Assembly: GCA_964397195.1 (NCBI GenBank)
Contig: CAYNGY010000002.1
Location: 37,239-101,238, forward strand
DNA from: an uncultured Gammaproteobacteria bacterium
GTDB taxonomy: Bacteria; Patescibacteriota; Patescibacteriia; SBBC01; CAIJZX01
DNA: 64,000 nucleotides
Direction of reading: 5' to 3'
This document shows, in pieces, positions 13,366 to 38,571 of the stretch. A program made the translations under genes and the position numbers. Within the stretch, counting starts at the first letter, position 1. Every line of letters begins with the position of its first letter. Below the pieces are notes generated by a model. The model saw only the letters and a list, made by a program, of their open reading frames with translations. It ran no database searches and was not told the DNA's origin.

Positions 13366-13393
13366 GTCTGTGTCCTCCTGATGGCGGTCGATT

Positions 13394-14911: not shown

Positions 14912-15094
14912 GGGACTCCTCCGTTTTTTATGACCGGGCGAGGGAGATCACCGGTCGTTGTCAATGGTCGACGCGACCCTCGCTTGAACTCACCAGTCTA
15001 ATGAGCAGAAAAGACTGATGAGTCCAAGTGAAGATCCGGCGGCGGACTCGCGTGTTACTGCGAGTCCGCCGTCAGAGTGCGGGTTGAATATCTT

Positions 15095-15211: not shown

Positions 15212-15245
15212 GGGTTGGCCTTTCCGCGGCAAGGGGGGGGTGGTG

Positions 15246-15401: not shown

Positions 15402-15412
15402 GTCGTTCTCCT

Positions 15413-15808
15413 CTAGAGTTGCGGCCAGCGGAAGAAACAGTTCAGGAGCAACAGGATGCCGATGATCTTGCCGATCAGCGTGATGACGTAGCGCGCGATC
15501 TCGGTTTCGTGGCCGAGGTCGTACTCGAACGTCCGATGATCGCCCATTTCCTTGTTCAGGGCGGTCGCGATGCGCTTCAGCGACGAGATGGTGTTGCCGC
15601 AGTGCGTGGCCATACTCAGACCGAGCACTGCCGCCACGACGCCGGCCATCCAGCCGAGCGTGTAGTTGTGCCACACGTGGTTGGTGACCCAGGCGACGGG
15701 AACCATCAGGATCGCGATCATGAAGAAGATCGTGAAGATGATGAGTTCGAGGCGGAAGACTTCGTACTGCTTGAGCAGTGAGCGGATGTAGATCTCATCC
15801 TGATCCAT
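15413..15808 (-). CDS. hypothetical membrane protein (about 131 aa from MDQDEIYIRSLL...)
   Basis: Start chosen at the ATG with SD GGAG 6 nt upstream. Two to three TM helices (LELIIFTIFFMIAILMVPVAWV; GWMAGVVAAVLGLSMA; ITLIGKIIGILLLL). Confidence 0.55.
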   Translation of the reverse strand: MDQDEIYIRSLLKQYEVFRLELIIFTIFFMIAILMVPVAWVTNHVWHNYTLGWMAGVVAAVLGLSMATHCGNTISSLKRIATALNKEMGDHRTFEYDLGHETEIARYVITLIGKIIGILLLLNCFFRWPQL

Positions 15809-15893
15809 TTGCACTCCTCGGCGGCTTGAGCCGCGAATGGGTAGTGGCGTGGACAGCGAGTCCGTTTCGAAGATATTCGTGAGAGTTAAGGTG

Positions 15894-15979
15894 CGACTCT
15901 CGTTTGAAGGTTTCAATGGTTGAAACTCTCAAACGAGAGTCCCAGTACCGGCTGTCCTTGTCGGACTTCCGGTACTGGG
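15894..15979 (-). repeat. tandem perfect inverted repeats (nested 13-bp + 7-bp hairpin, then an 11-bp hairpin) between two co-oriented island genes
   Basis: First hairpin: GACTCTCGTTTGA (15894-15906) pairs with TCAAACGAGAGTC (15929-15941), enclosing the inner stem GTTTCAA/TTGAAAC. Second hairpin: CCCAGTACCGG (15941-15951) pairs with CCGGTACTGGG (15969-15979). Neither is followed by a U-tract. Confidence 0.7.
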
Positions 15980-15995
15980 ATGATCTCATCTACAT

Positions 15996-16451
15996 CTAGA
16001 TGAACTCGTACTTCGGGCCGTTGGCGAAGATGGCGCGCGTGTACCAGCGACGACCCTGTTGGTCGAAGTACTGCAGGTCGACACGCTCGACGCCCTCGGA
16101 ACGGTCCGGCAGGTAGCTGAAGTTCAGCTTACCTCGGCAGGCCTTGCCGCCGGTGTCCTGGTGGCACTCGATACGCTGGCCGCTGTCGGGATCGTTGAAC
16201 TCGAGGTAGTCCTTCGAGAACATGCTCATGACCTCGAAGATGCTCCGCGGGAGCTGACCGTTGTTGTTGACTCGGAAGTTCTCGACCTTGTCAGCCATCC
16301 GGTTCATGGTGTTGACCAGGGACTCGTGCCGATGCCCGGCCTGGCTCCGTACGAGCTGCGTCTGAGTCTCCTTGAGCCGACGCAGAAGGTACGTGCTGTA
16401 CATGGCGGCGGCAACACCGAAGATAGCGAGGATGAACACGGAAATGCTCAT
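15996..16451 (-). CDS. hypothetical N-terminally anchored protein (about 151 aa)
   Basis: Start at the second ATG (MSISVFILAIFGVAAAMYSTYLL) with SD GGGAGA. One TM helix followed by a hydrophilic domain. Confidence 0.55.
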   Translation of the reverse strand: MSISVFILAIFGVAAAMYSTYLLRRLKETQTQLVRSQAGHRHESLVNTMNRMADKVENFRVNNNGQLPRSIFEVMSMFSKDYLEFNDPDSGQRIECHQDTGGKACRGKLNFSYLPDRSEGVERVDLQYFDQQGRRWYTRAIFANGPKYEFI

Positions 16452-16662
16452 GAAGTCTCCCATGCTTGACCGGATCTATCCGGGGCGGGTTGGAGTGGCG
16501 AAGACGACGAGTTTATTGTAGATGAGAGTAGAAAGAACAAACTCTATCTCTCGCATAACGTGACCACGTGGTGATCAGGTTGTGCGAGAGGCCCGGAACC
16601 ACTCCTTCCGATCTTGTCGGGAGTTTGGTTCTGGGCCGAACGAAGGTGCTCTCGCGGAATGC

Positions 16663-16911
16663 CTAGTAGGTGCGCGTCTCGGCGCGATTGGTCTCGCGGT
16701 GGAGCGAGACGGCCAGCCAGAGTACGCCGGTTCCGATCACGGTGACGAACAGCGCGGCCGGGAAGAGGCGGGGGTCGGCACTGTAGTCCTTGATGGCCGA
16801 GTAGACGCCGTAGAGGCCGAGCGCCGCGATCGCCGTCCCGAAAACGGACAGGACCGCGGACAGCATGTGACGACCGAACTTCTGGTCAGGCGTGAGGCGG
16901 AGCGTCGACAT
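16663..16911 (-). CDS. hypothetical small membrane protein (82 aa, 2 TM)
   Basis: Two hydrophobic helices. SD AGGTAGGA upstream. The overlapping plus-strand ORF 16582-17064 is D/E/R/G-rich antisense noise. Confidence 0.5.
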   Translation of the reverse strand: MSTLRLTPDQKFGRHMLSAVLSVFGTAIAALGLYGVYSAIKDYSADPRLFPAALFVTVIGTGVLWLAVSLHRETNRAETRTY

Positions 16912-17136
16912 GGATTCCTACCTTTCGGTGAGGGGCGGGTGATACGAAAAAACGCGTTGCGGCGACAAATCCCGGAGCAGGTTTATCACAACAACGCGTT
17001 TTTCACATATCGTGTCCGACGTCTGCTCACGTGGCACGAAGCGGGTATATTTAAAGAACAGTAGATTATACGCTTGGCGGCGAAAAATGTCAAGAGTAAG
17101 GGCGTGGCGACGGATCGTATTTGGCTAATTATAGCC

Positions 17137-17159
17137 AAAAAAACCCAGCCGAAGCTGGG
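17137..17159 (-). terminator. rho-independent terminator for the RNase III-like gene (minus strand)
   Basis: On the minus strand: CCCAGC-ttcg-GCTGGG followed by TTTTTTT (plus-strand 17137-17159 reads AAAAAAACCCAGCcgaaGCTGGG). Confidence 0.7.
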
Positions 17160-17184
17160 GGTAGGGTGGGGTTCTTGGGCCCTG

Positions 17185-17982
17185 CTACTTCCGAATTTCG
17201 GCGAGCAGGCGCGTCAGCGCGAATTCTCGAGCGCGAGACGGATTGGGGGACTTGCCGCGAGTGAGGCATCCGTTCAGCTTGGCCGTGCAGTGGTAGACGG
17301 CGTTCCTCGGACCACCGCGTCGACGATTCTGGATCCGTGGTACCGGGTAGCCGTGTTGACGGGCGTAGATGACGAGTGCGGCCCACGGATTGAGGCGGCG
17401 GCCGTTGACGGTCGTAGGTGTGACCTCCAGCAGATCCTCCGGTCGGTGGTCGTTCCCTTGGTCAGTTGTGACCTCATGGCCGTTCGTGACCGGGATGGTC
17501 GTTGGCAGGGGATGTCTCAGCACGTACGGCAGGTACCGTTCGATGACGTAGGCCTCAGCCGCAGCGACTCCTTGGTGGCGGTCGATGATGGCGAGGACGC
17601 ACTCGAAGGTTGTGCCGAGAGTGTGGTCAGCTTTCCGTGCGTTGCGGCGCGATCCCGTCAGTTGGCGAGCGAGATTCGCGACGCCGATGTGGCCGAGATA
17701 GGTCGCCATGCACCCGTTCGTCGTGACATGGTCAACCCACGTCGGGTCGAGACCATGCGCCGATCCGTTCTTATTGAACCAACGTCGAAGCGCGAGCTCA
17801 ACGATCGAATCGCCGATGAACGAGAGCGCTTTCCGAGTGTCTTCGTAGGGCAGTGGGTGACGTTCGCCCGACTGGCCGGTGATGATGATCCGGATCCAGT
17901 CAGTCGACAGGTCGGGTAGCCCAAGCTGCGTCCTGATGACGCCGAAGAGCGCATTTCGCGTCGATCCATTTGCGGTTCCCAA
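17185..17982 (-). CDS. RNase III-like protein (catalytic-domain-like region, about 60-aa insert, C-terminal dsRBD), TTG start
   Basis: KALSFIGDSIVELALRRWF matches the RNase III signature ERLEFLGDAxLEL. HTLGTTFECVLAIIDRHQG matches ADxFEAxxGAIYLD. The C-terminal segment NPWAALVIYARQHGYPVPRIQNRRRGGPRNAVYHCTAKLNGCLTRGKSPNPSRAREFALTRLLAEI is dsRBD-like. SD AAGGAG lies 7 nt upstream of the TTG start. Confidence 0.6.
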   Translation of the reverse strand: MGTANGSTRNALFGVIRTQLGLPDLSTDWIRIIITGQSGERHPLPYEDTRKALSFIGDSIVELALRRWFNKNGSAHGLDPTWVDHVTTNGCMATYLGHIGVANLARQLTGSRRNARKADHTLGTTFECVLAIIDRHQGVAAAEAYVIERYLPYVLRHPLPTTIPVTNGHEVTTDQGNDHRPEDLLEVTPTTVNGRRLNPWAALVIYARQHGYPVPRIQNRRRGGPRNAVYHCTAKLNGCLTRGKSPNPSRAREFALTRLLAEIRK

Positions 17983-18164
17983 GGTGCACTCCTTGTGTGT
18001 CGGTCCGTGCTACGGGAGTAGAACGGTGCTCCTGCCTCAAGCCTAGGCTCGTTTCGCGGTATCGTCAAGGATACTTTCGGTATGTGGAAAACTGGTATTT
18101 ACGGTTCGGTTATTATTCCCCGGCTCGCGGGCCGGGGCAGGCTAAACCTTAGAAAATCAGGGTC

Positions 18165-27031: not shown

Positions 27032-27114
27032 GTGGTACTATACGAACTGTAACCCCGTTCGACTCCATATATAGGAGGGAAGTATCAAATGCCGGGCGGG
27101 CGGAAACTGACACC

Positions 27115-27660
27115 ATGCACGAAGAACGTGAATCCAACGATTTGGAAATCTTGGCCGCCGCTCAGCGCGGTGACCAATCGGCCGTCCGCGCCCTCTATGA
27201 TCGGTATGCAACCTTCGTCTTTCATTGGGTTGCCCGGCGGGTCGATCGCCGTGAAGATGCCGAAGATTTAACCGCGGATATCATGTTACGCATGGTCGAG
27301 GCACTACCGACAGCAAAACCAACTGCTACCTTTAAGGCCTGGCTCTTCGGCATCGGTCGACATGTGCTGGCTGATTTTTGGCGAACGACGTATCGCTTGC
27401 CTGAAGCTGAGCTAATCCCGGAGCTACTCGGTGCCCCTGGCGATGAGCCCGATCCACAGGATGATGGGAGTCTGCGGGCAAAAGCGGAGGAAGTAATTGC
27501 ACAGTTGCCTGACCAGTATCGAGCGGTTCTCGAACACCGTTTTTTTCATCTCCATACCATAGCCGAGACAGCGACGGCGATGGCCACCTCAGAGGGGAAC
27601 GTCAAAGTTCTCCAGTATCGCGCTCTCAAAAAAGCCGCTGAATTAGCTGCACGCGTATGA
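27115..27660 (+). CDS. ECF-type RNA polymerase sigma-70 family factor
   Basis: 181 aa from the ATG at 27115. Region 2 LEILAAAQRGDQSAVRALYDRYATFVFHWVARRV...DLTADIMLRMV, and region 4 LPDQYRAVLEHRFFHLHTIAETATAMATSEGNVKVLQYRALKKA. The stop overlaps the next start (ATGA). Confidence 0.8.
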   Translation: MHEERESNDLEILAAAQRGDQSAVRALYDRYATFVFHWVARRVDRREDAEDLTADIMLRMVEALPTAKPTATFKAWLFGIGRHVLADFWRTTYRLPEAELIPELLGAPGDEPDPQDDGSLRAKAEEVIAQLPDQYRAVLEHRFFHLHTIAETATAMATSEGNVKVLQYRALKKAAELAARV

Positions 27661-30600
27661 GCAACCCACACGACCAGATTAACGATTACCTCGAATACAT
27701 CGCCGGTCGCCGTAAAAAGGCACCGTCTCTATCCGTCGAGGATCAGGATGTTCTGAGGGCGATGCATTTATTGCGCCATGCACGGCCACACACCGATCCC
27801 CGTCCAGAATTTATTTCCACCTTAGGACAGAAAGTTATGAGCCAACAGCCGCGGCCACAGACGTTATCGAAAAAACAAGTAGTTCATGCAGCACCAACGT
27901 GGTCGGTATCTTGGTGGTGGCTACGGTTAGCGCCAGTAATGGCGACGGCGGCGATTGTCTTGGCAATGGTACAGCTCCCGGCCGGGGTCAACGACTTCAA
28001 CTGGACGCTTTTCCGAAAGTCAGTGATTCAGGAAGCATCGGCGGCGACGATTACCTTGGTGGCGGCCGATACGACTGCCACGGGTATTTCGCCGACAACT
28101 GCTTTCGTGGTGACAGGCAAAGATGGGACGTTGACCGAAGAGATGGTCAGGAAGAATCTGGTGTTTTCGCCAACGATTGATGCCGAGATTCAGGCGGCGG
28201 GTGATAATACCTACCGACTCATCCCAAAGACCGCCCTCGATCAGTCGGTGGTGTATGCGGCGACGTATGCTGGACAAGCGAAGGCAACGGATGGGACGCT
28301 TCAGGCCCGAAATTATTCATGGGCCTTCCAAGTCCGCCGTGATTTTATTGTGATCGGGACGTACCCACGCGACGCCGCGACCTATGTTGAGATCACATCC
28401 GGGTTGGATATCACATTCTCGAGCGGAGGTGTCAGCGTTAAGGATTTTGAAAAAGCACTTTCCATAGTGCCGGCCACGCCCCATACGATTGAGATTCACG
28501 GCCGGACGATGTCGATTATACCGAAAAACCCGTTACAGGAGCGCACTATCTATACCGTGACGATTAAGGCCGGGCTCCACCCGGACAAAAGTACGATGTC
28601 GCTAGCTGATGATGTAGTGACGCGGTTCGAGACCGGCACGAAAGACGGGTCGGGAACGACAACAGCGTTTCATTCACGATCTGCATTTGAGACCGTCGCA
28701 CCAGGGGATTCGATTTACTTCTCCGACAGCGCTGTTCCGGGCGACGCGTCAAACGGAACAAAGGACTGGAAAACCAGTTACGAGTTTGCGATTTATTCAT
28801 TCCCGTCGCTCGAGACCTTCAAAAAAGCTATTGAAACGCGGTTAGAACATGCGTTCGGCTGGGCATCGTTCAATGAGATGCCATTAATGACGGTGACAGG
28901 ATTAAGTAAGGTGGCGACCGTGAAGACTGTTTCGCATGACGGCGTGATGAGCTTGCCAAAATCTTTTGCGCCGGGCGCATATGTGGCCGAGACAATGGTT
29001 GGCGGGGTGCGGACGCAAATGCCGTTCATCGTATCGGATATTAGTAACTACACCATGTCCACAGCCACCGATACGGTCGTGTGGGTCCATCACCTTTCCA
29101 CCAAAAAACCGGCGGTCGGCGCAACTATTACCTTGGCCGACAATACCACCGTTAAGACGGATCAAGAAGGATTGGCTCGTTTCCCAACGCCAAGCGCTCT
29201 CGGACAGTCTGGCGCACCAAATATGGTGGTTCGCATCGCCGTTGGAACAACTGAAACGCTCAGCGTTCTTGCGGCTTCAAACTCGGGCTCAATATACTAC
29301 GGCCGGAATTACACCAGCCTTGATAACTACTGGGCGTACCTGACAACCGATCGTAGCCTGTATCGTCCGACTGATACGGTTCACTTTTGGGGGTTACTAC
29401 AACCACGAGACACACGCGCAGCGGTCGAGAAGGTCAGCGCGCGCTTAGTGGTGACGAACTGGGATCGGGGTGGAGCGGAGACGGTGATGAAAGAGGTGCC
29501 CGTGACGTTAACCGCCGACCATACATTTATCGGCGAGATCCCGCTTCGTGAAGCTTCAGTTGGTTGGGGCAAGGAATTGCGGATCTATGTCGGCGAGCAA
29601 TGGGTCATGACCCGCTATCTTGATGTGCAGGTATTTCAGACCCCGGCGTATCAGCTGAGCGTCACATCAGACAAGCCGGCAGTCTTTGATAACGAGGAAG
29701 TGACCTGGACGGTTCGGGCCTCGTTCTTTGATGGTACGCCGGTCCCAAATCTCAAAGTAAAATTGACCACCAACGGTGAATATACACTGACGACAAATGC
29801 TGCCGGTATGGTCTCGAAGAAAGTTCGGTTGACCATGGCACAGGGCGGATCGGCATCAGCGGTTCCCGTGGATGACGCGACGAATAATATTCAGGGGTGG
29901 GGCTATGTGACGGTTTATCCGGCCGCGCGTTCCATTATCGCTACAAGCTCGACGACGGATTCGACGGTTAAAGTATCTGGAACCGTACGGACGGTAAACC
30001 CAACGAAAGTTGATATGGCCGCTAGCAATCCGTTCGCGGCAGTTGTAGGCGATCCGGTGGCGAACGCTACGGTTCACGTGCGCCTGATCAAAACAACCTA
30101 TACGGCGGTGAAAAACGGTCAGGTCTATGATTTCCTGACGAAACAAGTCGTGCCGAAGTATCAATATACTTCGAGTGAAGCCGATAGAGAGGCCTTAGAT
30201 GTGGTGACCGATGGTGACGGAAAGTTCCAATACACATTTACCGCTGAGGATTTGTCGGGCTATCGTGTTGAGTTAACAACTACGGATGAGGCTGGGCGGA
30301 CAGAGTCGCAAACGCTGTTCCCATGGTTTTCTTATCCGAGTGACGCCCCGGCATTTTCCCTGACAACTTTCCAGCCATTGAACACGCCGTGGAAAGTTGG
30401 TGATGCGGTGACGCTTTCGATTGTCGGAACAAAAAAACAGGAAGAGGCGCCGAAGCATCTCGCGTATCTCTACATGCTGAGCCAACGCGGACTGAAAACG
30501 GCCGACGTCAGCGCAAAATCAACGCTCGATCACATTTTTACTGAAGCTGATGTGCCGAATGTGAGCGCTCGCGCCGTTGTGTTCACGGGTACCGGATATA

Positions 30601-32765
30601 GTGAACTGAACGAGCAATTTTTCAACTTTGATTCAAGTACGCGGGCGTTAGCGGTGTCCCTCACGACCGATCAAAAGAGTTATGAACCAGGCGAGACGAT
30701 TACTGCACATGTGAAACTGCGTGATGCGGATGGTGCCGGGGTGGCCGGACGGGTGAATGTTCGTGCGGTCGATGAAGCCATTACGAATCTGCAGTACGAT
30801 TGGGGCAATGACACCCCGCTGACAAGCCTCTACCGAAACGTCTCAAGCGGTGAATACGGGAGCTATGTTAGCCATCAAGCGTTTGGCCGGAATGATGTGA
30901 TGGCCGAAGGTGGGGGTGGTGGCGATCGCATCGACTTTAAAGATGTCGCCCATTACTCCGAAGTACAAACTGATGCGGCTGGAAACGGCACGGTCACGTT
31001 CGTCGCGCCGGATAACATCACGTCATGGCGCATGGTCGCACAGGCTATTAGCCCTGATCGACGGGCTGGTACGGCCACGACCCTCGTGGCAGTCACCCGG
31101 CCAATCTTTGTTCGACCGGATGTCCCGACGGTGATCTTGGCTTCGGATGTCGTTGACGTTCAAGCAAGCGTCTTTGGCTCGGCGGTTACGTCTGGTGATA
31201 CGACCAATATTACCTTTTCCATTGTTGGGCAGACGGGGACGGAGAAAACCGTTCACGGAAAAGTGTTTACCCCTCTGCAGTATCGATTGCCGAAACTCCC
31301 GGTTGGTTCATACCAGGTGCGCATGTCCGCCTCGGCGAAAGGACATGTCGATTCGGTTGTCATGCCATATCGGGTGACGACGACGACCCTGACAACGGCG
31401 GTCACCAGTGTTGCTCTATTGGAGAAAAACGAGACACCGCTGTTGAGCACTTCAGATCGGACCGATATTGGGATTGGTCAGGCGGATCGGATGTTTGCGT
31501 ACGCCGCATTGGATCGTCTGCTCTGGAATTCCCAACTGCGTCTGGATGATGCAGTAGCGTCGAGTATGGCGGCGACGCTCCTCCGCGAACACTTTAAAAA
31601 AGATTACGGTACCTCGGTCTATGACCCGCTCACATTTTTAACGACGAGTGGTGTCGCGCTCTACCCGGTTGGGAGTAACGATCTTGAATATGGCTCGCTC
31701 GCGGCGACTGATACGGCGATGGCGGCATATCGTGGCCAGCTTGTGATATGGTTCCGATCGGCACTCGATAATCCGAAGACGAATACGGAGCAGGCCATCT
31801 ATGCGCTCTACGGGTTGGCACAGCTCCATGAGCCGGTCTTAGATCAAATCCATCAATATCTCGATCTCGAGGGGATTACCGATCAAGAACGTCTAACGTT
31901 AGCCTTGGCGCTTGAGACCTTGGGTGCCCGTGAAGAAGCGCGTCCGATTGCGACGTATCTCTGGGAAACGTATGGGAAGTCGGAGGCACCATACGCGTGG
32001 ATGACATTGGGTCGGAATGAAGAAGAGCGACGGGTTCAAACCGGGCGGTTCGCTATTTTAGCGGCGGGTTTACAACTTGATACTCGGTATGGCCTGTTGC
32101 AGTATATCGAGACCCACCAGCCACAAGACACGACGACCCATCTTGAAATGGCGCTGGTGGCACAACGGTTGCTGCGGGCGGCAGGCACATCGTCGGTATC
32201 GGTCACGTACCAATTGAATGGCGAAACGAAAACAGCGACTTTGGCACGGAATGAATCAATTGGGCTGTCTGTTGATAGTACTGAGGCGAAGACCTTCACG
32301 ATTACGCATCACACGGGTAACGTGGTTGCTGTCACGCATACGACACAGTCATTGAGCGCGGCGAATGCGACGGATCCAAAGCTATCGGTAACGAGACGCT
32401 ATAGCAAGGACGGTAAACCGACGACGTCTTTCACGCGTGGTGAGATTATTCGAGTCGATGTTTCGTGGTCGGCCAAGTCCGGGGCGCCGGGCACCTACTA
32501 CGGTGTGATCGACTCATTGCCTACGGGATTACGACCGTTGTCTAACCAGTATGTGTTCGGCGCGACCTACGACTCGCATCTCGTGTATCCGATGGCGATA
32601 GATTCGCGGCGGGTGCTGATTCGGTCAGGTGAGAAGAGTTTCCATTATTATGTACAGGCGGTATTGAGCGGAAACTATTCGGCCGAACCGGCGATGCTCC
32701 AGGCGCTTGACGCGCCCGGTAGTTATACGGTCAGTCCAGCCAGCCAAGGCATCACCATCAAATAG
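27657..32765 (+). CDS. giant membrane-anchored protein (1702 aa): anti-sigma-like N-terminus, one TM helix, huge ectodomain of beta-sandwich (Ig/MG-like) repeats plus an alpha/alpha-toroid-like region
   Basis: Cytoplasmic N-terminus (about 100 aa) then TM WWWLRLAPVMATAAIVLAMV. Very long T/S/V/G-rich repetitive beta-strand-like sequence. A helical region near 31.4-32.1 kb (YAALDRLLWNSQ..., YALYGLAQLHEPVLDQIHQYLDLEGITDQERLTLALALETLGAREEA) resembles alpha/alpha toroid repeats. It contains almost no Cys, so there is no CxEQ thioester. It is translationally coupled to the ECF sigma gene. Confidence 0.7.
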   Translation: MSNPHDQINDYLEYIAGRRKKAPSLSVEDQDVLRAMHLLRHARPHTDPRPEFISTLGQKVMSQQPRPQTLSKKQVVHAAPTWSVSWWWLRLAPVMATAAIVLAMVQLPAGVNDFNWTLFRKSVIQEASAATITLVAADTTATGISPTTAFVVTGKDGTLTEEMVRKNLVFSPTIDAEIQAAGDNTYRLIPKTALDQSVVYAATYAGQAKATDGTLQARNYSWAFQVRRDFIVIGTYPRDAATYVEITSGLDITFSSGGVSVKDFEKALSIVPATPHTIEIHGRTMSIIPKNPLQERTIYTVTIKAGLHPDKSTMSLADDVVTRFETGTKDGSGTTTAFHSRSAFETVAPGDSIYFSDSAVPGDASNGTKDWKTSYEFAIYSFPSLETFKKAIETRLEHAFGWASFNEMPLMTVTGLSKVATVKTVSHDGVMSLPKSFAPGAYVAETMVGGVRTQMPFIVSDISNYTMSTATDTVVWVHHLSTKKPAVGATITLADNTTVKTDQEGLARFPTPSALGQSGAPNMVVRIAVGTTETLSVLAASNSGSIYYGRNYTSLDNYWAYLTTDRSLYRPTDTVHFWGLLQPRDTRAAVEKVSARLVVTNWDRGGAETVMKEVPVTLTADHTFIGEIPLREASVGWGKELRIYVGEQWVMTRYLDVQVFQTPAYQLSVTSDKPAVFDNEEVTWTVRASFFDGTPVPNLKVKLTTNGEYTLTTNAAGMVSKKVRLTMAQGGSASAVPVDDATNNIQGWGYVTVYPAARSIIATSSTTDSTVKVSGTVRTVNPTKVDMAASNPFAAVVGDPVANATVHVRLIKTTYTAVKNGQVYDFLTKQVVPKYQYTSSEADREALDVVTDGDGKFQYTFTAEDLSGYRVELTTTDEAGRTESQTLFPWFSYPSDAPAFSLTTFQPLNTPWKVGDAVTLSIVGTKKQEEAPKHLAYLYMLSQRGLKTADVSAKSTLDHIFTEADVPNVSARAVVFTGTGYSELNEQFFNFDSSTRALAVSLTTDQKSYEPGETITAHVKLRDADGAGVAGRVNVRAVDEAITNLQYDWGNDTPLTSLYRNVSSGEYGSYVSHQAFGRNDVMAEGGGGGDRIDFKDVAHYSEVQTDAAGNGTVTFVAPDNITSWRMVAQAISPDRRAGTATTLVAVTRPIFVRPDVPTVILASDVVDVQASVFGSAVTSGDTTNITFSIVGQTGTEKTVHGKVFTPLQYRLPKLPVGSYQVRMSASAKGHVDSVVMPYRVTTTTLTTAVTSVALLEKNETPLLSTSDRTDIGIGQADRMFAYAALDRLLWNSQLRLDDAVASSMAATLLREHFKKDYGTSVYDPLTFLTTSGVALYPVGSNDLEYGSLAATDTAMAAYRGQLVIWFRSALDNPKTNTEQAIYALYGLAQLHEPVLDQIHQYLDLEGITDQERLTLALALETLGAREEARPIATYLWETYGKSEAPYAWMTLGRNEEERRVQTGRFAILAAGLQLDTRYGLLQYIETHQPQDTTTHLEMALVAQRLLRAAGTSSVSVTYQLNGETKTATLARNESIGLSVDSTEAKTFTITHHTGNVVAVTHTTQSLSAANATDPKLSVTRRYSKDGKPTTSFTRGEIIRVDVSWSAKSGAPGTYYGVIDSLPTGLRPLSNQYVFGATYDSHLVYPMAIDSRRVLIRSGEKSFHYYVQAVLSGNYSAEPAMLQALDAPGSYTVSPASQGITIK

Positions 32766-32766
32766 T

Positions 32767-33633
32767 ATGCGTCAATTTGCGGTCCTGAGTCTCGGACTGC
32801 TTGGGGCCGCCGCGCTGGTCGTGGCGGCCTGGTGGTTTACGTGGCCGTCCGTCAGCGAGACCCCGCTTCCAACACCGGTGGTGACTGCCGACGTGATGCG
32901 GGACGCTATGGCCGACGCACAGAAATACACGGTCACGCCGCTGGGCGCGGTCCGGGCACTGCTGGTACCCCATCATGCACTCGTGAGTCCGATTATGCTC
33001 GGGACGTTGCAGGGAATTGTGGCCGGGGCGACACCACGTCGGGTTATAATCCTGGGGCCCGATCATCAGGGACACGGCGTCGCTTCAATGACAACGACTA
33101 GTCGTGATTGGTCGACCGTGGCTGGCACGGTTCGATCAAACCGGGCTCTAGCTGAACAATTGATAACGGATGTGGGAGTGATGGAAGACGATGCGCTCGC
33201 GGCTCGAGAGCATGGCGTGTATGCCATGATTCCCTTTATTCATCAACGATGGCCGGCGGCGACGGTGGTCACGGTGGCGCTACAGTATACGACCTCAGAA
33301 TCGGACGTACAGCGCTTGGCGGATTGGATGGCGACGCATCTTGGTGACGGTGATTTAGTGGTGTGTAGCGTCGATTTTTCGCACTACAAGTCATCGTTGG
33401 AAGCTGATGCCGAGGATGTGTTATCGCTCGCGGCGATCACGAACATCGATACCACCGCGGCGTGGTCGGTGCCGGTAGATTCGCCACCAGCCTTAGCGGC
33501 CGTGCTTCGTTTTGCGCACCAGCGTAACCTGTCTTTTCAGTTGGCCACACATACGAATTCAGCGAAATACAGTGGGAACTTGGCCAGCACTTCAACCACG
33601 TCATATATTACGGGGTATTTCTATACACGGTAG
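32767..33633 (+). CDS. Memo-like protein (MEMO1 / AmmeMemoRadiSam system protein B family) with N-terminal signal anchor
   Basis: Start at ATG 32767, 1 nt after the giant gene stop. N-terminal hydrophobic LSLGLLGAAALVVAAWWF. Memo-family motifs LVPHHALV, ILGPDHQGHG, EHGVYAMIPFI and SVDFSHY. Confidence 0.65.
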   Translation: MRQFAVLSLGLLGAAALVVAAWWFTWPSVSETPLPTPVVTADVMRDAMADAQKYTVTPLGAVRALLVPHHALVSPIMLGTLQGIVAGATPRRVIILGPDHQGHGVASMTTTSRDWSTVAGTVRSNRALAEQLITDVGVMEDDALAAREHGVYAMIPFIHQRWPAATVVTVALQYTTSESDVQRLADWMATHLGDGDLVVCSVDFSHYKSSLEADAEDVLSLAAITNIDTTAAWSVPVDSPPALAAVLRFAHQRNLSFQLATHTNSAKYSGNLASTSTTSYITGYFYTR

Positions 33634-33659: not shown

Positions 33660-35024
33660 ATGGATACCAGTATTTTTAAGAGCTACGATATTCGTGGAAT
33701 CTACCCCAATCAGTTAAACGAAGCGGATGCGTTTTGTATTGCTCGCGCGTACGCCGCGCTACGTCAACAAGAAGAGCCCGGGAAGCGGTTGACCATTGCG
33801 GTCGGCGGAGATATGCGGGTGTCAACACCAACCTTGAAGGCAGAGGTTATTCGTGGTCTCCAGACCGCTGGGGTTGACGTGGTCGACGTTGGACTGGTTT
33901 CGACGCCGACGTTTTATTTTGCCACAGCCTTTTATGGCTATGATGGCGGTATACAAGTTTCAGCGTCGCATAACCCTAAGGAATATAATGGATTGAAAAT
34001 GGTGCGGACCGCTGGCCGGCCGATCGGAAAAGGGACGGGGATGGATGCGTTACGTGATCTGGCTATGGCAGGCCGTTTCAACACGGCAGAAGTGCCCGGT
34101 ACGGTGACGAAGAATACTCAGGTGATGAGCGACCTCGTTCGCGAACAAACGAAAGATATTCCGTGTGATGAGATTCGACCATTCACGATTGTGGTTGATG
34201 CGGCGAATGCGATGGGGGCGATTGATGTTGAAGCGATGTTCGCGGGGCTACCTTGTCGCCTAATCAAACTCAACTTTACACTTGACGGAACATTTCCGGT
34301 TCATCAGCCGGATCCGCTTGAACCAAAAAATCTTTTGGTGTTACAAGAAGCGGTACGTGAACATCAGGCTGATCTCGGGATTGCGCCAGATGGCGACGGC
34401 GATCGCTATTTCTTTGTTGATGAGCATGGTGATGTGGTGCGACAGGAGATACTGCGAGGCATTATGGCCCAAGAGGCATTACGCGAGCATCCGGGAGCAA
34501 CGGTGTGTTACGACATCCGACCGGGTCGAATTACTCGCGATATGATCGAGGCGGTCGGCGGCCGGGCCGTAGTGGCGCCAGTCGGCCATTCGCTTATTAA
34601 AGCAAAAATGCTGTCCGAAGATGCGGTTTTCGGTGGTGAATCAAGCGGACACTTCTTTTACAAGTTCCCATTCGGTACTTTTGAAGCTCCGACCGCGTTT
34701 GTGCTCAAATTTTTGGTGTGGGTATCGCGACAGCAGAAACCACTGTCGACGGCGGTGGCACCGTATAAAATATATTCGCATTCTGGCGAAATTAACTCAA
34801 CGGTGGCGTCGGTACCGGCAGTCCTTGATCGTATTCGTGCTCAGTATGCAGATGGCGTCCTGACGGAGCTCGATGGGGTCACCATCGAGTACCCAGATTT
34901 CTGGTTTAATGTTCGTGGTTCGAATACGGAGCCGCTCATTCGCCTTAATCTTGAAGCGAAGACCGAGGAACTGATGACCAAAAAACGAGACGAGGTGCTC
35001 GCCTGTATTCGTTCCGACGCCTAG
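33660..35024 (+). CDS. phosphomannomutase/phosphoglucomutase (alpha-D-phosphohexomutase family)
   Basis: N-terminal IFKSYDIRGIYP, active-site Ser loop SASHNPKEYNGLK, and metal-binding loop APDGDGDR. Confidence 0.85.
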   Translation: MDTSIFKSYDIRGIYPNQLNEADAFCIARAYAALRQQEEPGKRLTIAVGGDMRVSTPTLKAEVIRGLQTAGVDVVDVGLVSTPTFYFATAFYGYDGGIQVSASHNPKEYNGLKMVRTAGRPIGKGTGMDALRDLAMAGRFNTAEVPGTVTKNTQVMSDLVREQTKDIPCDEIRPFTIVVDAANAMGAIDVEAMFAGLPCRLIKLNFTLDGTFPVHQPDPLEPKNLLVLQEAVREHQADLGIAPDGDGDRYFFVDEHGDVVRQEILRGIMAQEALREHPGATVCYDIRPGRITRDMIEAVGGRAVVAPVGHSLIKAKMLSEDAVFGGESSGHFFYKFPFGTFEAPTAFVLKFLVWVSRQQKPLSTAVAPYKIYSHSGEINSTVASVPAVLDRIRAQYADGVLTELDGVTIEYPDFWFNVRGSNTEPLIRLNLEAKTEELMTKKRDEVLACIRSDA

Positions 35025-36929: not shown

Positions 36930-37131
36930 AATGGGCCTAGTGTAGCAGATTCTCAGGTTTTGGCGAGGGGCGTGTCCTTGACGGTGTTGGAGTGGCAGGA
37001 TAGAACTTGCTTCGTCTCTTCCTATATCTGTCTCGGACTTTGGGAGGGCATCATCGACTCGGTGTTTTCTATATGAAAACGCGCCCCGGGATATCCAGTC
37101 CCAGAGCGCGGGGTTGTCGGTGCGATGCGTA

Positions 37132-38073
37132 CTAGGCGCCGAGGCCGCGATCACCGATGATCGACTTCAGGTGCTCAATCATGGCGACGCCGCGACGTTC
37201 CTGCGCCGGGTTCGAGACGCGAACTTTCGTCCGCGGCGGACCGAGCAGGGCGCGGGTGATCTCGGCGAGCTTCCGGCCGTGGATCGGCTGGGGCTCGGCG
37301 TGCTTGACCTCTTGCTCGAGCAGTTGCAGACCGGCCTCCAGCTCGATGGCCCGACCGCGCGGCGCGTCGATGGTCTCGTCGACGGAGACGAAGGTCACAT
37401 AGTCGGCGGTCGATTCCCAGGTGGCTACGAACTCGATCAGGCGGGTGAGTGGCCAGGGCGAGCCCGGTGTCCAGACGATCGTCTCATGCTCGTTCGCGAA
37501 CTCGATCTGATGGACACTGATCACGTTGACGTGCCAGGGATAGTGTCCGTCCTTGTTGAGGATCGCCTCCCAGTTCTGGTACTCGGGATCGTATCGATAG
37601 AGGATTCCCGGCTGGCCGTCGCCGAAGCGCGGCATGCGGATTGCGAAGGGGATCGCCGCGCTGAAGTACTGCGGGTGTGGCTTGAACCCAAGCTGACCCG
37701 AGTTCAGTATCGGCGGATCTTGGTGTGCGTGAAGCTCGCCGTCGGGCGTGATGGCGAGCCAACCCTGACCGAACTGGTAGCGGGTCTGCCAGGTCAGGAA
37801 GGACCAGAGCGTGTACAAAACTGCCGCGGACAGCACGGCGATAACCGTCCAGCCTTCGCGGGTGTACGCCTGCCAGTCGCGCTGTGTGTCCGAGAGCGCG
37901 AGGGACATGAAGACGAACAGGGCGATGCCGAAGAGCAGGCAGATAACCCCGTACATCTCCTTCTTCCAGCGCCGGGTGTTCTGCTCAGCTGCGGTCACAT
38001 ACTTCCGATCGAAGTGGTGATCTTGAAGCTGACGTGCCGCCTGGCGACAGGCCCGACAGTTTTCTTGTGACAT
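37132..38073 (-). CDS. hypothetical membrane protein (about 313 aa) with very high GC3, probably horizontally acquired
   Basis: Start at MSQENCRACRQAARQ with SD GGAGGA 5 nt upstream. Two TM helices (VICLLFGIALFVFMSLAL; WTVIAVLSAAVLYTLWSFL) and a W/Y-rich C-terminal domain. The overlapping plus-strand ORF 37114-38070 is D/R/G-rich antisense noise. Confidence 0.55.
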   Translation of the reverse strand: MSQENCRACRQAARQLQDHHFDRKYVTAAEQNTRRWKKEMYGVICLLFGIALFVFMSLALSDTQRDWQAYTREGWTVIAVLSAAVLYTLWSFLTWQTRYQFGQGWLAITPDGELHAHQDPPILNSGQLGFKPHPQYFSAAIPFAIRMPRFGDGQPGILYRYDPEYQNWEAILNKDGHYPWHVNVISVHQIEFANEHETIVWTPGSPWPLTRLIEFVATWESTADYVTFVSVDETIDAPRGRAIELEAGLQLLEQEVKHAEPQPIHGRKLAEITRALLGPPRTKVRVSNPAQERRGVAMIEHLKSIIGDRGLGA

Positions 38074-38571
38074 GGCATCCTCCAGAACCGAATCAGCCTC
38101 GATCCCGCTCCGCTCCAAATCGTCGGAGTCGCGGATACTGATCCGGCGGATGTGGGTCGATCGACCCAATGTGAAGCTACGACCGTCGGACAACGACGGG
38201 ATGGACTTGCTTTATCAGAAAAGAGGGGATTTGTCAATCCCCGATAGCGCAATTTGGGCTAAGATGCGGCCAAAGGAAAAGTACACATTGGCCCATTCAA
38301 TACTGTAACGTTCGGGAGCGAGAAGTGTAACGTTGGGTGTGGGTGATGTGGGGCCGATGTCCTGCCGGACGGGCATTCCTTTTCTCCTTGATGAGAAAAG
38401 GAACCGAAAAGAATCAAGCGGCCGATAAACTCGGGCCGCAAATTGGCGGCCCTCAAACAGTATCGGCCGCGCAACGGTTTCATCGCTTGGAAGACGGACG
38501 GCCAAAACCAACCACCCCTCCCGTGTCATCCCCGCGTAGTCGGGGAAAGGAGGGGCTGGTGGGAAAACGCG
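38074..38571. other. roughly 500-nt non-coding region dense in nested inverted repeats (possible structured RNA, or regulatory/terminator region)
   Basis: Examples: GGCCGATA-aactc-GGGCCGC-aaattg-GCGGCCC-tcaaacag-TATCGGCC (about 38432-38485). CCCCTCC...CCCCG-cgtagt-CGGGG...GGAGGGG (about 38515-38560) directly downstream of the rnj stop. TTTTCTC-cttgat-GAGAAAA. GGGGATT-tgtca-AATCCCC. Confidence 0.4.

What the first reader, a model, noticed from the sequence alone, without database searches (positions are those of the whole stretch)
27115..33633. ECF sigma factor translationally coupled to a 1702-aa anti-sigma-like protein with a giant repetitive ectodomain, followed by a signal-anchored Memo-like protein
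The sigma gene stop overlaps the start of the next gene (ATGA). That protein has a short cytoplasmic N-terminus of anti-sigma style and one TM helix. An extracellular region of about 1600 aa follows: long T/S/V-rich beta-strand repeats (Ig/MG-like), a helical alpha/alpha-toroid-like stretch near 31.4-32.1 kb, almost no cysteine and no CxEQ thioester. Typical anti-sigma factors are ten times smaller. The gene directly downstream (1-nt gap) encodes a Memo/AmmeMemoRadiSam-B-like protein with a hydrophobic N-terminus, implying extracytoplasmic or membrane-tethered location. No AMMECR1 or radical-SAM partner is adjacent. The trio could form a surface-sensing sigma/anti-sigma signalling module with an associated Memo-like enzyme.
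Basis: partly seen in the sequence, partly recalled or inferred. Interest (0 to 1): 0.72.

Follow-up and report, generated by a model that had tools for sequence, protein, structure and literature searches.

The report
Sigma factor tethered to membrane macroglobulin
A small-genome (CPR/Patescibacteria) bacterium encodes an ECF sigma factor, a 1702-residue membrane-anchored, thioester-free alpha-2-macroglobulin whose cytoplasmic tail probably holds that sigma factor, and an outward-facing Memo-like metalloenzyme; the same three-gene module recurs in three phyla, which suggests a surface protease trap wired directly to gene expression.

Summary
The genes are an ECF sigma (27115-27660), a 1702-aa protein (27657-32765, ATGA overlap) and a Memo-like protein (32767-33633, 1-nt gap).

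The giant protein is a bacterial alpha-2-macroglobulin (A2M). It matches Pfam MG2, bMG3, A2M_BRD and A2M. AlphaFold models match native E. coli and Salmonella A2M best. It has no cysteine, so it cannot form a thioester. It has one N-terminal TM helix and a disordered loop at the bait position.

Its 86-aa cytoplasmic N-extension has no detectable homology to any anti-sigma family. Context still argues for anti-sigma function:
- Of 70 related genome loci with usable upstream sequence, 15 have an ECF sigma gene abutting the A2M gene. All 15 have at least 50 aa before the TM helix (Fisher p=2e-10).
- Some orthologues carry a true zinc anti-sigma motif (HxxxCxxC).
- Sigma and extension are gained or lost together in at least 5 clades.

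A Memo gene follows in 42 of 71 loci, and in 12 of 12 sigma-coupled loci that could be assessed. It always has a signal anchor or lipobox.

No paper in the searched library links these parts. My best reading is a protease-sensing, self-replenishing A2M/anti-sigma module that works like RsiV. The signal and Memo's role are inferred. I rate it a new variant of known kinds.

The parts
27049..27066 (+). Conserved upstream block GTAACCC-N4-CGACT, 49-66 nt before the sigma start codon. It is a candidate ECF-type -35 element (TGTAAC-like) or an operator.
   Evidence: The block is conserved between the window and the orthologous locus L173. More distant relatives carry CGTAAC-N16-CGTTA or CGTAAC-N16-CAGTTA upstream of their sigma genes. 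No GTAAC-N15-18-CGTT site is present in the window. Function is not shown.
27115..27660 (+). ECF (group 4) sigma factor, 181 aa.
   Evidence: Sigma70_r2 E=1.4e-12 and Sigma70_r4_2 E=3e-10, with no region 1 or region 3 hit. TIGR02937 sigma70-ECF scores 77.7 bits against a cut-off of 42.9. The stop codon overlaps the next gene's ATG.
27657..32765 (+). Membrane-anchored, thioester-free alpha-2-macroglobulin family protein, 1702 aa, with a cytoplasmic N-extension.
   Evidence: Pfam hits are A2M, MG2, bMG3, A2M_BRD, Big_5 and a weak bMG10. The family profile hits ECAM and Salmonella A2M at E~1e-20. Foldseek on two AlphaFold models returns the same proteins as top hits.
27657..27914 (+). Cytoplasmic N-extension (aa 1-86), the putative anti-sigma domain of an undescribed type.
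   Evidence: Close orthologues share the motif xDYLExLAGR..DxDvL..L..LR..P.P.F...L...V, with A16, G17, R18, D29 and P50 invariant. An extension is present only where an ECF sigma gene abuts the A2M gene. It has no homology to known families.
27915..27986 (+). Single transmembrane helix (aa ~87-110), with predicted N-in topology.
   Evidence: It is the only hydropathy peak in the protein (19-residue Kyte-Doolittle window, up to 1.88). The N-terminal flank has 3 K/R and no D/E.
28347..28634 (+). Big_5 Ig-like domain (aa 231-326).
   Evidence: Pfam PF13205, E=4e-07.
29031..29549 (+). bMG3 (aa 459-541) and MG2 (aa 560-631) macroglobulin domains.
   Evidence: Pfam PF11974 E=4e-08 and PF01835 E=4e-10.
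30372..30791 (+). A2M bait-region domain (aa 906-1045).
   Evidence: Pfam PF07703, E=5.5e-08. It is modelled as beta domains.
30846..30926 (+). Flexible loop at the bait position (aa 1064-1090), containing the conserved AE-GGGGG motif.
   Evidence: It is the only long stretch with pLDDT below 50 in the model of aa 560-1180. The motif (G)AExGG(E/G)GG..RxxFxD is conserved across 77 family members. In 6 of the 77 a Hint domain is inserted exactly here.
30960..31178 (+). A2M (MG7) domain (aa 1102-1174).
   Evidence: Pfam PF00207, E=3.4e-13.
31482..32180 (+). TED-like helical (alpha/alpha toroid) domain (aa ~1276-1508) without a thioester.
   Evidence: AlphaFold model helices 182-414 in the aa 1095-1702 model (pLDDT 84), flanked by beta domains in the positions expected for CUB. 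Best structural matches are the native Salmonella A2M 4u48 (E=3e-25, TMq 0.63) and ECAM 5a42. The protein has no Cys. I place the lost CLEQ site at LRLDDA from my own reading of alignment A1. No thioester-bearing reference sequence was aligned to check this.
32382..32711 (+). C-terminal MG8/bMG10 domain (aa 1576-1685).
   Evidence: Weak Pfam bMG10 hit, E=1e-04. This is the best-matching stretch to ECAM and SaA2M in the PDB profile search.
32767..33633 (+). Signal-anchored, extracytoplasmic Memo-like metalloprotein, 288 aa.
   Evidence: PF01875 61.5 bits and TIGR04336 90.6 bits. The hydrophobic N-terminus spans aa 4-24. Subfamily-invariant residues are H69, H70, P98, H100, H149, D203, H206, D238, T278 and Y280, with E148 conserved in at least 90%. 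The subfamily profile hits human MEMO1 3bcz at E=1e-11. The gene lies directly downstream of the A2M gene in 42 of 71 assessable genome loci. Conversely, 32 of 39 stand-alone Memo genes of this subfamily have an A2M gene directly upstream.
33660..35024 (+). Phosphomannomutase/phosphoglucomutase gene. It is adjacent on the same strand and may be co-transcribed, but it is not a conserved member of the module.
   Evidence: All four PGM_PMM domains are present. No PMM homologue was found next to the module in any other locus.

Best explanation
**What it is.** The region is a three-gene envelope module in a CPR/Patescibacteria genome.
- Gene 1 encodes an ECF sigma factor.
- Gene 2 encodes a type-II (N-in) single-pass membrane protein. 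Its ~1590-residue ectodomain is a complete, thioester-free bacterial alpha-2-macroglobulin, built of MG domains, a bait-region domain, MG7, a CUB-positioned beta domain, a TED-like toroid and MG8.
- The 86-residue cytoplasmic N-extension of gene 2 acts as the anti-sigma factor that sequesters the co-translated sigma.
- Gene 3 encodes a membrane-tethered, outward-facing Memo-family metalloprotein that works with the A2M on the cell surface.

**Proposed mechanism.** At rest, the A2M stands on the surface of a cell that lacks an outer membrane and holds the sigma factor at the membrane. Attack by a foreign protease on the exposed ectodomain, most likely at the flexible bait-position loop (aa 1064-1090), cleaves it or triggers its conformational collapse. 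The remaining membrane stub is then removed by regulated intramembrane proteolysis. The sigma factor is released and re-induces its own operon, producing more A2M and Memo. The trap is therefore both inhibitor and sensor, and it replenishes itself when consumed. B. subtilis RsiV does the same for lysozyme.

**Shown here:** gene order and overlaps; domain identity and fold; absence of a thioester; predicted topology; family-wide linkage of sigma, N-extension and Memo.

**Inferred:** binding of sigma by the N-extension (about 0.7); a protease as the signal, with RIP as the release step (about 0.35); autoregulation; and any specific chemistry for Memo.
For: **Identity of the giant protein.**
- Pfam A2M, MG2, bMG3, A2M_BRD and Big_5.
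- The family profile hits ECAM and Salmonella A2M at E~1e-20.
- AlphaFold models of aa 1095-1702 (pLDDT 84) and aa 560-1180 (pLDDT 80) give native SaA2M and ECAM as the top Foldseek hits, at E 3e-25 and 2e-26.
- There are no Cys residues.
- A disordered loop sits at the bait position.

**Anti-sigma role of the N-extension.**
- The sigma and A2M genes overlap by ATGA.
- Across 91 loci the flanks hold 20 ECF-sigma hits. Eighteen lie directly upstream of the A2M gene on the same strand, with gaps of -17 to +12 nt.
- Of 70 assessable genome loci, 15 are sigma-adjacent. All 15 have at least 50 aa before the TM helix, against at most 7 of 55 without a sigma (Fisher p=2.4e-10).
- Orthologues P0009/L002 carry a true zf-HC2 motif HxxxCxxC that scores 26.4 bits against a cut-off of 22.2. 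L074 has the same Cys/His motif but scores only 13.9 bits, below the cut-off.
- Close sister sequences differ by having both sigma and extension or neither, for example L018 and L019.
- The sigma tree is congruent with the type of N-extension.
- Closer orthologues P0158 and P0161 keep the same N-extension motif and the same trio.

**Memo linkage.**
- All 46 Memo hits in the genome loci lie immediately downstream on the same strand. Nearly all have a TM anchor or a lipobox.
- All 12 sigma-coupled loci that could be assessed on both sides have a Memo gene.
- In the reverse test, 32 of 39 stand-alone Memo genes have an A2M gene directly upstream.
- Metal-site residues are invariant and the subfamily profile matches MEMO1.

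**Literature.** Thioester-free bacterial A2M (MagD) traps a protease non-covalently after bait cleavage (PMC5764988). That gives a precedent for the trap function.
Against: **N-extension.** The window's N-extension has no detectable similarity to any anti-sigma family, to any PDB chain, or to the ZAS-type extensions of orthologues.

**Bait loop.** The bait-position loop is short and its AExGG..GG motif is conserved. A broad-spectrum bait would be expected to be hypervariable. This fits a specific processing site at least as well as a generic protease bait.

**Missing parts.**
- No site-2 protease gene lies in the window or is a conserved neighbour.
- No convincing ECF promoter was found upstream of the sigma gene in the window.
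- About 80% of family members have no sigma gene, so signalling is an add-on rather than the core function.
- One ZAS-bearing orthologue (L042) has no adjacent sigma gene.
- Nothing tested here indicates what Memo does.
Confidence: 0.6

Rival explanations
1. **Envelope quality control.** The sigma factor and N-extension do form a sigma/anti-sigma pair. The signal, however, is export failure, misfolding or turnover of this very large surface protein, or general envelope stress. Foreign proteases are not the signal. The A2M-like ectodomain would act mainly as a structural shield or adhesin on a cell without an outer membrane. The coupling would only adjust its synthesis to demand.
For: - The bait-position loop carries a conserved motif and is not a hypervariable bait.
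- The family lacks a thioester throughout.
- Most members have no sigma gene.
- CPR cells carry many giant surface proteins, and A2M-domain proteins in Vampirococcus are only presumed to be defensive (PMC8080830).
Against: - The complete A2M architecture is retained, including the TED-like domain and a disordered bait-position loop. The best structural match is to the native (uncleaved) A2M conformation.
- Thioester-free MagD still traps a protease.
- Some non-sigma relatives carry long bait-like Ala/Pro/Met-rich loops at the same position.
Confidence: 0.2
2. **No anti-sigma function.** The sigma factor is simply the dedicated transcriptional activator of the A2M-Memo operon. It is controlled transcriptionally or by an unlinked partner. 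The N-extension is a cytoplasmic tail with another role, such as membrane insertion, localisation or docking of another protein.
For: - The window-type N-extension has no homology to any anti-sigma family.
- The N-extensions of different clades are mutually unalignable.
- In L172 the sigma gene and the A2M gene are separated by 106 nt rather than overlapping.
Against: - Sigma gene and N-extension co-occur strictly (15 of 15 against at most 7 of 55, p=2e-10).
- They are gained and lost together in sister lineages.
- Orthologous A2Ms in one clade carry a genuine zinc anti-sigma domain in the same position, next to the same kind of sigma gene.
- Non-homologous N-extensions at the same position, each paired with its own sigma subgroup, are what would be expected of fast-evolving or independently recruited anti-sigma domains.
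Confidence: 0.15
3. **Chance adjacency.** Three unrelated genes happen to sit together in a compact genome.
For: The surrounding genes are unrelated housekeeping genes packed tightly. The downstream PMM gene is indeed not a conserved neighbour.
Against: The same gene order, strand and near-zero spacing recur in dozens of loci from three phyla. The Memo-to-A2M association is also strong in the reverse direction.
Confidence: 0.02

Closest known systems
Bacterial alpha-2-macroglobulins: Type I (ECAM/YfhM, Salmonella A2M) and Type II (P. aeruginosa MagD / E. coli YfaS)
   Same: The domain architecture and fold are the same: MG domains, bait-region domain, MG7, a CUB-positioned beta domain, a TED-like domain and MG8. 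The protein is anchored to the cytoplasmic membrane and faces outward. Like Type II it lacks the CXEQ thioester. Type II MagD is documented to trap a protease non-covalently after bait cleavage (PMC5764988).
   Different: - It is anchored by an N-terminal TM helix, with a cytoplasmic extension before it. From my own knowledge, not checked here, ECAM is anchored by a lipoprotein signal.
- Its operon partners are an ECF sigma and a Memo protein. The known partners are PBP1c (Type I) or MagA, B, C, E and F (Type II).
- It occurs in Patescibacteria, Chloroflexota and Bacillota. The literature read here treats bacterial A2Ms as a Gram-negative feature.
- Sequence identity to the solved proteins is only 13-17%.
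- The bait-position loop is short and conserved (AExGG..GG).
RsiV/SigV of Bacillus subtilis, an anti-sigma factor that is itself the receptor and inhibitor of lysozyme (from my own knowledge, not retrieved here)
   Same: It is the functional analogue for the proposed mechanism. RsiV is a single-pass anti-sigma factor whose ectodomain directly binds a hostile hydrolytic enzyme. It is then removed by stepwise proteolysis, which frees an ECF sigma factor that induces resistance.
   Different: There is no sequence or fold relationship. RsiV is about 285 aa, while this protein is 1702 aa with an A2M ectodomain. The signal and the proteolytic cascade are untested here.
Class I zinc anti-sigma factors (ZAS: RsrA, RsiW, RslA, ChrR) with zf-HC2 domains
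   Same: The position and topology are the same: a cytoplasmic N-terminal domain followed by one TM helix, encoded directly downstream of an ECF sigma gene and translationally coupled to it. Orthologous A2Ms (P0009/L002 and L042, and more weakly L074) have the zf-HC2 HxxxCxxC motif.
   Different: The window protein has no Cys, no HxxxCxxC motif and no detectable ASD homology. Its 60-residue conserved core is shorter than a typical ~80-90-residue ASD.
RsgI-type anti-sigma factors of Clostridia, whose ectodomains are carbohydrate-binding or enzyme domains (from my own knowledge, not retrieved here)
   Same: They set the precedent for anti-sigma factors whose large extracellular part is a recognisable functional domain used as the sensor.
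   Different: The sigma family differs (SigI-like rather than ECF). The ectodomains are much smaller, and none is A2M-like.
MEMO1 / AmmeMemoRadiSam system protein B (PF01875, TIGR04336)
   Same: The protein scores above both curated thresholds. It aligns to human MEMO1 across the PH, GPxH, EH and DxxH motifs.
   Different: - It is exported and membrane-tethered.
- No AMMECR1 or radical-SAM partner is nearby.
- Its conserved partner is an A2M gene, or in a sister group a fused CapA/PGA_cap domain.
- It has an HH doublet and an invariant DSP motif. Whether the DSP motif corresponds to the MEMO1 cysteine position was not tested, because the alignment to MEMO1 stops before that point.

Membership tests
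ECF (group 4) sigma-70 family | Only regions sigma-2 and sigma-4 are present, in a protein of about 170-200 aa. | tested here: met
   Sigma70_r2 at aa 27-92 and Sigma70_r4_2 at aa 124-173, with no other sigma region. TIGR02937 scores 77.7 bits against a cut-off of 42.9. The protein is 181 aa.
ECF (group 4) sigma-70 family | Assignment to a named ECF group or equivalog. | tested here: not met
   The best NCBIfam equivalog is TIGR02952 (BldN family) at 92.5 bits against a cut-off of 206. All other equivalogs are also below their cut-offs. The ECF Hub models were not available.
Alpha-2-macroglobulin / thioester-containing protein superfamily (bacterial A2M) | An MG-domain array, a bait-region domain, MG7 ('A2M'), CUB, TED and a C-terminal MG domain. 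| tested here: met
   Pfam hits. PDB profile hits to ECAM and SaA2M at E~1e-20. AlphaFold plus Foldseek gives 4u48 at E=3e-25 (TMq 0.63) and 5a42 at E=2e-26.
Alpha-2-macroglobulin / thioester-containing protein superfamily (bacterial A2M) | A CXEQ thioester in the TED domain (defines Type I). | tested here: not met
   The 1702 residues contain no cysteine and no C.EQ. None of the 10 family members aligned in A1 shows a CxEQ.
Alpha-2-macroglobulin / thioester-containing protein superfamily (bacterial A2M) | An exposed bait region between the bait-region domain and MG7. | tested here: inconclusive
   A disordered loop at aa 1064-1090 sits at the right position. It is short and carries a conserved motif, so it is not a variable bait. 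Cleavage was not tested.
Bacterial A2M Type I or Type II operons | Co-encoded PBP1c (Type I) or the magABCEF/yfaTAPQ genes (Type II). | tested here: not met
   The neighbours are lgt, glyA and folD upstream and Memo, PMM, a hydrolase and TrpRS downstream. No transpeptidase or glycosyltransferase and no Mag-like genes are listed within about 10 kb on either side.
Class I anti-sigma factors (ASD/ZAS, Pfam zf-HC2, RskA and related) | Sequence or profile similarity to an anti-sigma domain, with HxxxCxxC for ZAS. | tested here: not met
   No Pfam hit at E<=10 for aa 1-129. No PDB hit for the N-extension profiles. hhalign probability is below 1% against the ZAS-type extensions. The protein has no Cys.
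Class I anti-sigma factors (ASD/ZAS, Pfam zf-HC2, RskA and related) | A cytoplasmic N-domain plus a single TM helix, encoded immediately downstream of an ECF sigma gene and co-transcribed with it. | tested here: met
   ATGA overlap. One TM helix at aa ~87-110 with a positively charged N-flank. The arrangement is conserved in 18 loci.
Class I anti-sigma factors (ASD/ZAS, Pfam zf-HC2, RskA and related) | Physical binding and inhibition of the cognate sigma factor. | not testable with these tools
This needs AF-Multimer, two-hybrid or in vitro transcription.
Memo family (PF01875) / AmmeMemoRadiSam system protein B (TIGR04336) | A profile match above the curated cut-off and conserved metal-site His and Asp motifs. 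| tested here: met
   PF01875 scores 61.5 bits (cut-off 27) and TIGR04336 scores 90.6 bits (cut-off 26). H69, H70, H100, H149, D203 and H206 are invariant in the subfamily. They align to the PH, GPSH, EHS and SDFCH motifs of MEMO1 3bcz.
AmmeMemoRadiSam system | Co-occurrence with AMMECR1 and a radical-SAM enzyme, in a cytoplasmic location. | tested here: not met
   Neither family appears among the genes within about 10 kb. The protein and its 46 homologues in related loci carry signal anchors or lipoboxes.

The most novel reading that the evidence does not exclude
The A2M ectodomain is a suicide sensor for foreign proteases. Cleavage at the conserved AE-GG loop collapses the trap and exposes the membrane stub to intramembrane proteolysis. 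That releases the ECF sigma factor held by a previously undescribed anti-sigma domain (xDYLxxLAGR...), so a cell without an outer membrane both neutralises the protease and transcriptionally replaces the spent trap.

In this reading the co-conserved exported Memo enzyme is a dedicated partner. It would install or maintain a non-thioester reactive or structural feature of the A2M, or of the envelope around it. That would give the Memo family its first defined bacterial substrate.

The Hint domains inserted at exactly this loop in relatives would be a self-cleaving variant of the same trigger, generating a thioester there.
Probability: 0.3. Interest if true: 0.85.

Novelty: new variant of a known kind. 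Interest (0 to 1): 0.66.

Why it matters
**For sigma-factor biology.** If the anti-sigma function holds, this adds a new sensor class to ECF signalling. The sensor would be a complete macroglobulin protease trap, about ten times larger than usual anti-sigma factors. It would also add at least one new anti-sigma domain family.

**For A2M biology.** This extends bacterial macroglobulins beyond the two Gram-negative operon types. The new context is a third one (TM anchor, Memo partner, optional sigma coupling) in Patescibacteria, Chloroflexota and Bacillota, where the protein sits directly on the cell surface. It also links an innate-immunity-like protein to transcription.

**For the Memo family.** Memo's biochemical role is unresolved. 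A tight, bidirectional genomic link to a single large partner, and to CapA-like domains, gives a concrete hypothesis that can be tested.

**For CPR bacteria.** These organisms have tiny genomes and few regulators. Spending about 6.5 kb on this module suggests it matters for life attached to other cells.

Tried and rejected
1. **Homology of the N-extension.** I scanned aa 1-129 against Pfam at E<=10. A word-indexed search of aa 1-116 found nothing. N-extension profiles gave no PDB hit. hhalign against the ZAS, Bacillota and CPR extension types gave nothing. An exhaustive phmmer search found the N-extension only on orthologous ~1700-aa A2Ms. The remaining hits were low-complexity matches.

3. 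**Sequence repetitiveness.** Tandem Repeats Finder and the direct-repeat search found nothing meaningful. 'Repetitive' is rejected at the sequence level.

4. **ECF promoter.** The GTAAC-N15-18-CGTT motif seen in relatives is absent from the window. The sigma-70 scan was at or below the number expected from shuffled sequence. Only a conserved GTAACCC..CGACT block is shared with L173.

5. **Other conserved partners.** PMM (downstream in the window) and a Peptidase_M50 gene (upstream of P0002) occur next to the module nowhere else. A CapA-like gene is a separate neighbour in only one genome locus.

6. **Metagenome scan with the 15-sequence Memo alignment** failed for lack of a conserved stretch. 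It succeeded with a 5-sequence alignment.

7. **Literature.** No paper in the library combines anti-sigma or ECF with alpha-2-macroglobulin, or A2M with Memo.

8. **Chance adjacency and the AmmeMemoRadiSam system** were both considered and rejected, as set out in the rival explanations and the membership table.

Full report
**1. Observation**

The three ORFs are exactly as described.
- The sigma ORF starts at ATG 27115. Its TGA stop (27658-27660) overlaps the ATG (27657) of a 1702-codon ORF that ends at TAG 32763-32765.
- One base later, ATG 32767 opens a 288-codon ORF that ends at 33631-33633.
- A phosphomannomutase gene follows at 33660.

The sigma protein has only regions 2 and 4 and passes the ECF superfamily model.

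The giant protein has a single hydrophobic segment at about aa 87-110 with a basic N-flank. It has no cysteine and no CxEQ, and it is rich in T, A, V and S. It is not repetitive in sequence.

The third protein passes both the Pfam Memo and the TIGR04336 thresholds. It starts with a hydrophobic anchor.

**2. What the giant protein is**

Pfam finds Big_5, bMG3, MG2, A2M_BRD, A2M and a weak bMG10 hit, in the order expected for a bacterial alpha-2-macroglobulin. A profile of the protein and nine relatives hits E. coli ECAM/YfhM and Salmonella A2M at E~1e-20.

Two AlphaFold models were made with an 11-sequence alignment.
- **aa 1095-1702** (pLDDT 84, pTM 0.69).
- **aa 560-1180** (pLDDT 80, pTM 0.71). 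This is a string of beta-sandwich domains. Its only long disordered stretch is aa 1064-1090.

Foldseek puts Salmonella A2M (4u48, E=3e-25, TMq 0.63) and native ECAM (5a42) first for the C-terminal model. It puts ECAM (E=2e-26) first for the middle model. Complement C3/C4/C5, TEP1, CD109 and human A2M follow.

The protein is therefore a complete A2M-superfamily member that cannot form a thioester. From my own reading of alignment A1, the family has G-x-R-(V/L)-D-Q where CLEQ would be expected, and the window protein has LRLDDA. No thioester-bearing sequence was aligned to confirm that position.

The literature recognises two bacterial types. Type I has the thioester and is encoded with PBP1c. 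Type II (MagD) lacks the thioester, lies in a six-gene mag operon, and traps a protease non-covalently after bait cleavage. Both are described for Gram-negatives (PMC5764988). The protein here resembles Type II in lacking the thioester. It differs in its anchor, its operon partners and its host lineages.

**3. Host**

RecA from the window is 80-88% identical to RecA of Patescibacteria/CPR MAGs (Kerfeldbacteria, Uhrbacteria and others). The window is dense with housekeeping genes. One CPR paper notes A2M-domain membrane proteins in Vampirococcus as a possible defence against host proteases, without any regulatory link (PMC8080830).

**4. Family census**

The word-indexed protein search gave only 19 relatives, at no more than 31% identity. 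A pattern scan of one genome per species returned 585 or more loci. The best 80 (L012-L091) come from Chloroflexota, Bacillota and Patescibacteria.

I called ORFs in all loci and searched them with HMMs built from the window's sigma, A2M and Memo proteins.

*Sigma linkage.*
- There are 20 sigma hits in all flanks. Eighteen lie directly upstream of the A2M gene on the same strand, with gaps of -17 to +12 nt.
- Among 70 genome loci with usable upstream sequence, 15 are sigma-adjacent. All 15 have at least 50 residues before the TM helix.
- Of the 55 loci without a sigma, at most 7 have that many, counted with the longest possible ORF (Fisher p=2.4e-10).

*Memo linkage.*
- A Memo gene follows in 42 of 71 loci with usable downstream sequence.
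- Where both sides can be assessed, the counts are 12 sigma+/Memo+, 0 sigma+/Memo-, 26 sigma-/Memo+ and 25 sigma-/Memo-.

*Additional trios.* Contexts retrieved for individual proteins agree. Four more sigma-coupled loci turned up in the metagenome set (L117, L118, L122, L168). Two came from closer orthologues (L172, L173).

**5. The N-extension**

For the window protein I found no homology to zf-HC2, RskA or any other family. There was no PDB hit and no hhalign similarity to other extension types.

It is nevertheless a conserved domain. An exhaustive phmmer search of 1.8 billion representatives finds it only at the N-termini of ~1700-aa orthologues. The alignment shows xDYLExLAGR..DxDvL..L..LR..P.P.F...L...V, with A16, G17, R18, D29 and P50 invariant.

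In the high-GC Chloroflexota clade the same position holds a zinc anti-sigma motif.
- P0009 (HLEGCATC) scores 26.4 bits on zf-HC2, above the 22.2 cut-off.
- L042 scores 21.6 bits, just below it.
- L074 scores 13.9 bits.

Bacillota and a second CPR clade have two further extension types that cannot be aligned with the others.

A neighbour-joining tree of ectodomains places sigma-coupled members in at least 5 clades. Their close sisters lack both sigma and extension, for example L018 and L019. The sigma tree splits into three groups that match the extension types.

The extension and the sigma gene therefore behave as one evolutionary unit grafted onto a pre-existing TM-anchored A2M. This is the main argument for anti-sigma function. 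It is contextual and does not rest on homology.

**6. Memo**

All 46 Memo hits in the genome loci sit directly downstream of the A2M gene. Nearly all start with a TM anchor or a lipoprotein signal such as LxGC, so the protein works outside the cytoplasm.

The subfamily keeps H69, H70, P98, H100, H149, D203, H206, D238, T278 and Y280 invariant, and E148 in at least 90% of members. Its profile matches human MEMO1 (E=1e-11) across the PH, GPSH, EHS and SDFxH motifs.

The reverse test scanned metagenomes for the motif VxSVDFSHY.
- Of 39 stand-alone (~300-aa) Memo genes with upstream sequence, 32 have an A2M gene directly upstream.
- Another 31 are TM-anchored Memo proteins fused to a CapA/PGA_cap domain (Pfam E down to 1e-72). 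A few of these also follow an A2M gene, including one sigma-A2M-Memo::CapA locus.

This points to envelope chemistry but does not identify the reaction.

**7. The bait-position loop**

Across 77 family members the loop carries a conserved (G)AExGG(E/G)GG...RxxFxD motif. In 6 of the 77 a ~130-residue Hint domain is inserted right after GG. It begins with Cys and ends in HN followed by Gly, Asp or Glu, so it is not a canonical splicing intein. Some Clostridia without sigma or Memo genes have 60-85-residue Ala/Pro/Met-rich loops at this position.

The conservation argues for a defined processing or trigger site more than for a generic bait. This lowers my confidence that any protease can be the signal.

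**8. Mechanism and confidence**

- The protein is a surface A2M: about 0.97.
- The trio is a functional module: about 0.9.
- The N-extension is the cognate anti-sigma factor: about 0.7.
- The signal is proteolysis or collapse of the ectodomain followed by intramembrane proteolysis (RsiV-like logic): about 0.35.

Rival readings are envelope or quality-control sensing, a sigma factor that acts only as an operon activator, and chance adjacency (refuted).

**9. Novelty**

No paper in the searched library links ECF or anti-sigma factors with A2M, or A2M with Memo. The ECF reclassification paper does not mention these domains in its main text. Supplementary tables and subscription journals were not searchable.

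I rate this a new variant of known kinds: a new anti-sigma sensor architecture and a third genomic context for bacterial A2Ms.

Noticed in passing
L003:3637-9237, L008:6001-11403, and L071, L081, L090, L091 (relatives). The equivalent site in the window is nt ~30888-30932.: In 6 of 77 family members a ~130-aa Hint/BIL domain (Pfam PT-HINT) is inserted exactly after the conserved AE(K/R/G)GG of the bait-position loop. It starts with Cys and ends 'VHN' followed by G, D or E. Without a nucleophile at +1 it should self-cleave, or form a thioester at Gly-Cys, and would not be expected to splice. That would amount to a built-in bait cleavage.
   Followed up: partly
L094, L099, L101, L103, L106, L108, L126 and others; also L118:6830-8749 and L160:6639-8408: A sister group of the exported Memo subfamily is fused to a C-terminal CapA/PGA_cap (poly-gamma-glutamate capsule, metallophosphatase-like) domain. 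There are 31 such fusions among the 80 Memo loci, and 4 of the 28 with upstream sequence follow an A2M gene. This suggests that exported Memo acts in cell-envelope chemistry.
   Followed up: partly
L016, L018, L020, L026, L027 (upstream of sigma); L117, L168; window 27049-27066 compared with L173: ECF-type promoter-like motifs lie upstream of the coupled sigma genes. They read CGTAAC-N16-CGTT(A/T) in Bacillota and CGTAAC-N16-CAGTTA in Dehalococcoidia-type loci. The window and its closer relative L173 share GTAACCC-N4-CGACT but lack a clear -10 element.
   Followed up: partly
L008:4884-5738 (also L009): A Peptidase_M50 (site-2 protease family) gene lies 263 nt upstream of the A2M gene P0002, which has no anti-sigma extension and no sigma gene. 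The arrangement was not seen in any other locus.
   Followed up: yes
L042:1486-6801: This A2M orthologue has a near-threshold ZAS-type N-terminus (HLDACDAC; zf-HC2 21.6 bits against a cut-off of 22.2) but no adjacent sigma gene. Upstream is a divergently oriented alpha/beta hydrolase, as in its relatives L004 and L069, whose N-termini have decayed. It may be a snapshot of loss of the coupling.
   Followed up: partly
window 51432-54893 (+) and 57781-59895 (+): Two further large ORFs are present. One is 1153 aa with no Pfam match at all. The other is 704 aa with only a CBM_4_9 carbohydrate-binding domain. Both may be additional surface proteins of this CPR cell.
   Followed up: no
window 12000-18000: This stretch has higher G+C (0.59-0.60, against about 0.54 elsewhere). 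It holds several ORFs without Pfam matches (12437-13135, 13394-14095, 15413-15916, 17074-17919) next to a stand-alone response-regulator receiver gene (14092-14571, minus strand).
   Followed up: no
window 37114-38070 (+) and 37132-38193 (-): Two long ORFs overlap almost completely on opposite strands. The plus-strand ORF has no Pfam hit, and the gene call in the matching Logan contig is also on the plus strand. Which one is real was not resolved.
   Followed up: no
L172:6455-8275: In the closest syntenic relative, the gene after Memo is a 606-aa LVIVD/Bact_surface_Ig-like surface protein. In the window that position is held by the phosphomannomutase gene. The TrpRS gene beyond it is conserved.
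   Followed up: no
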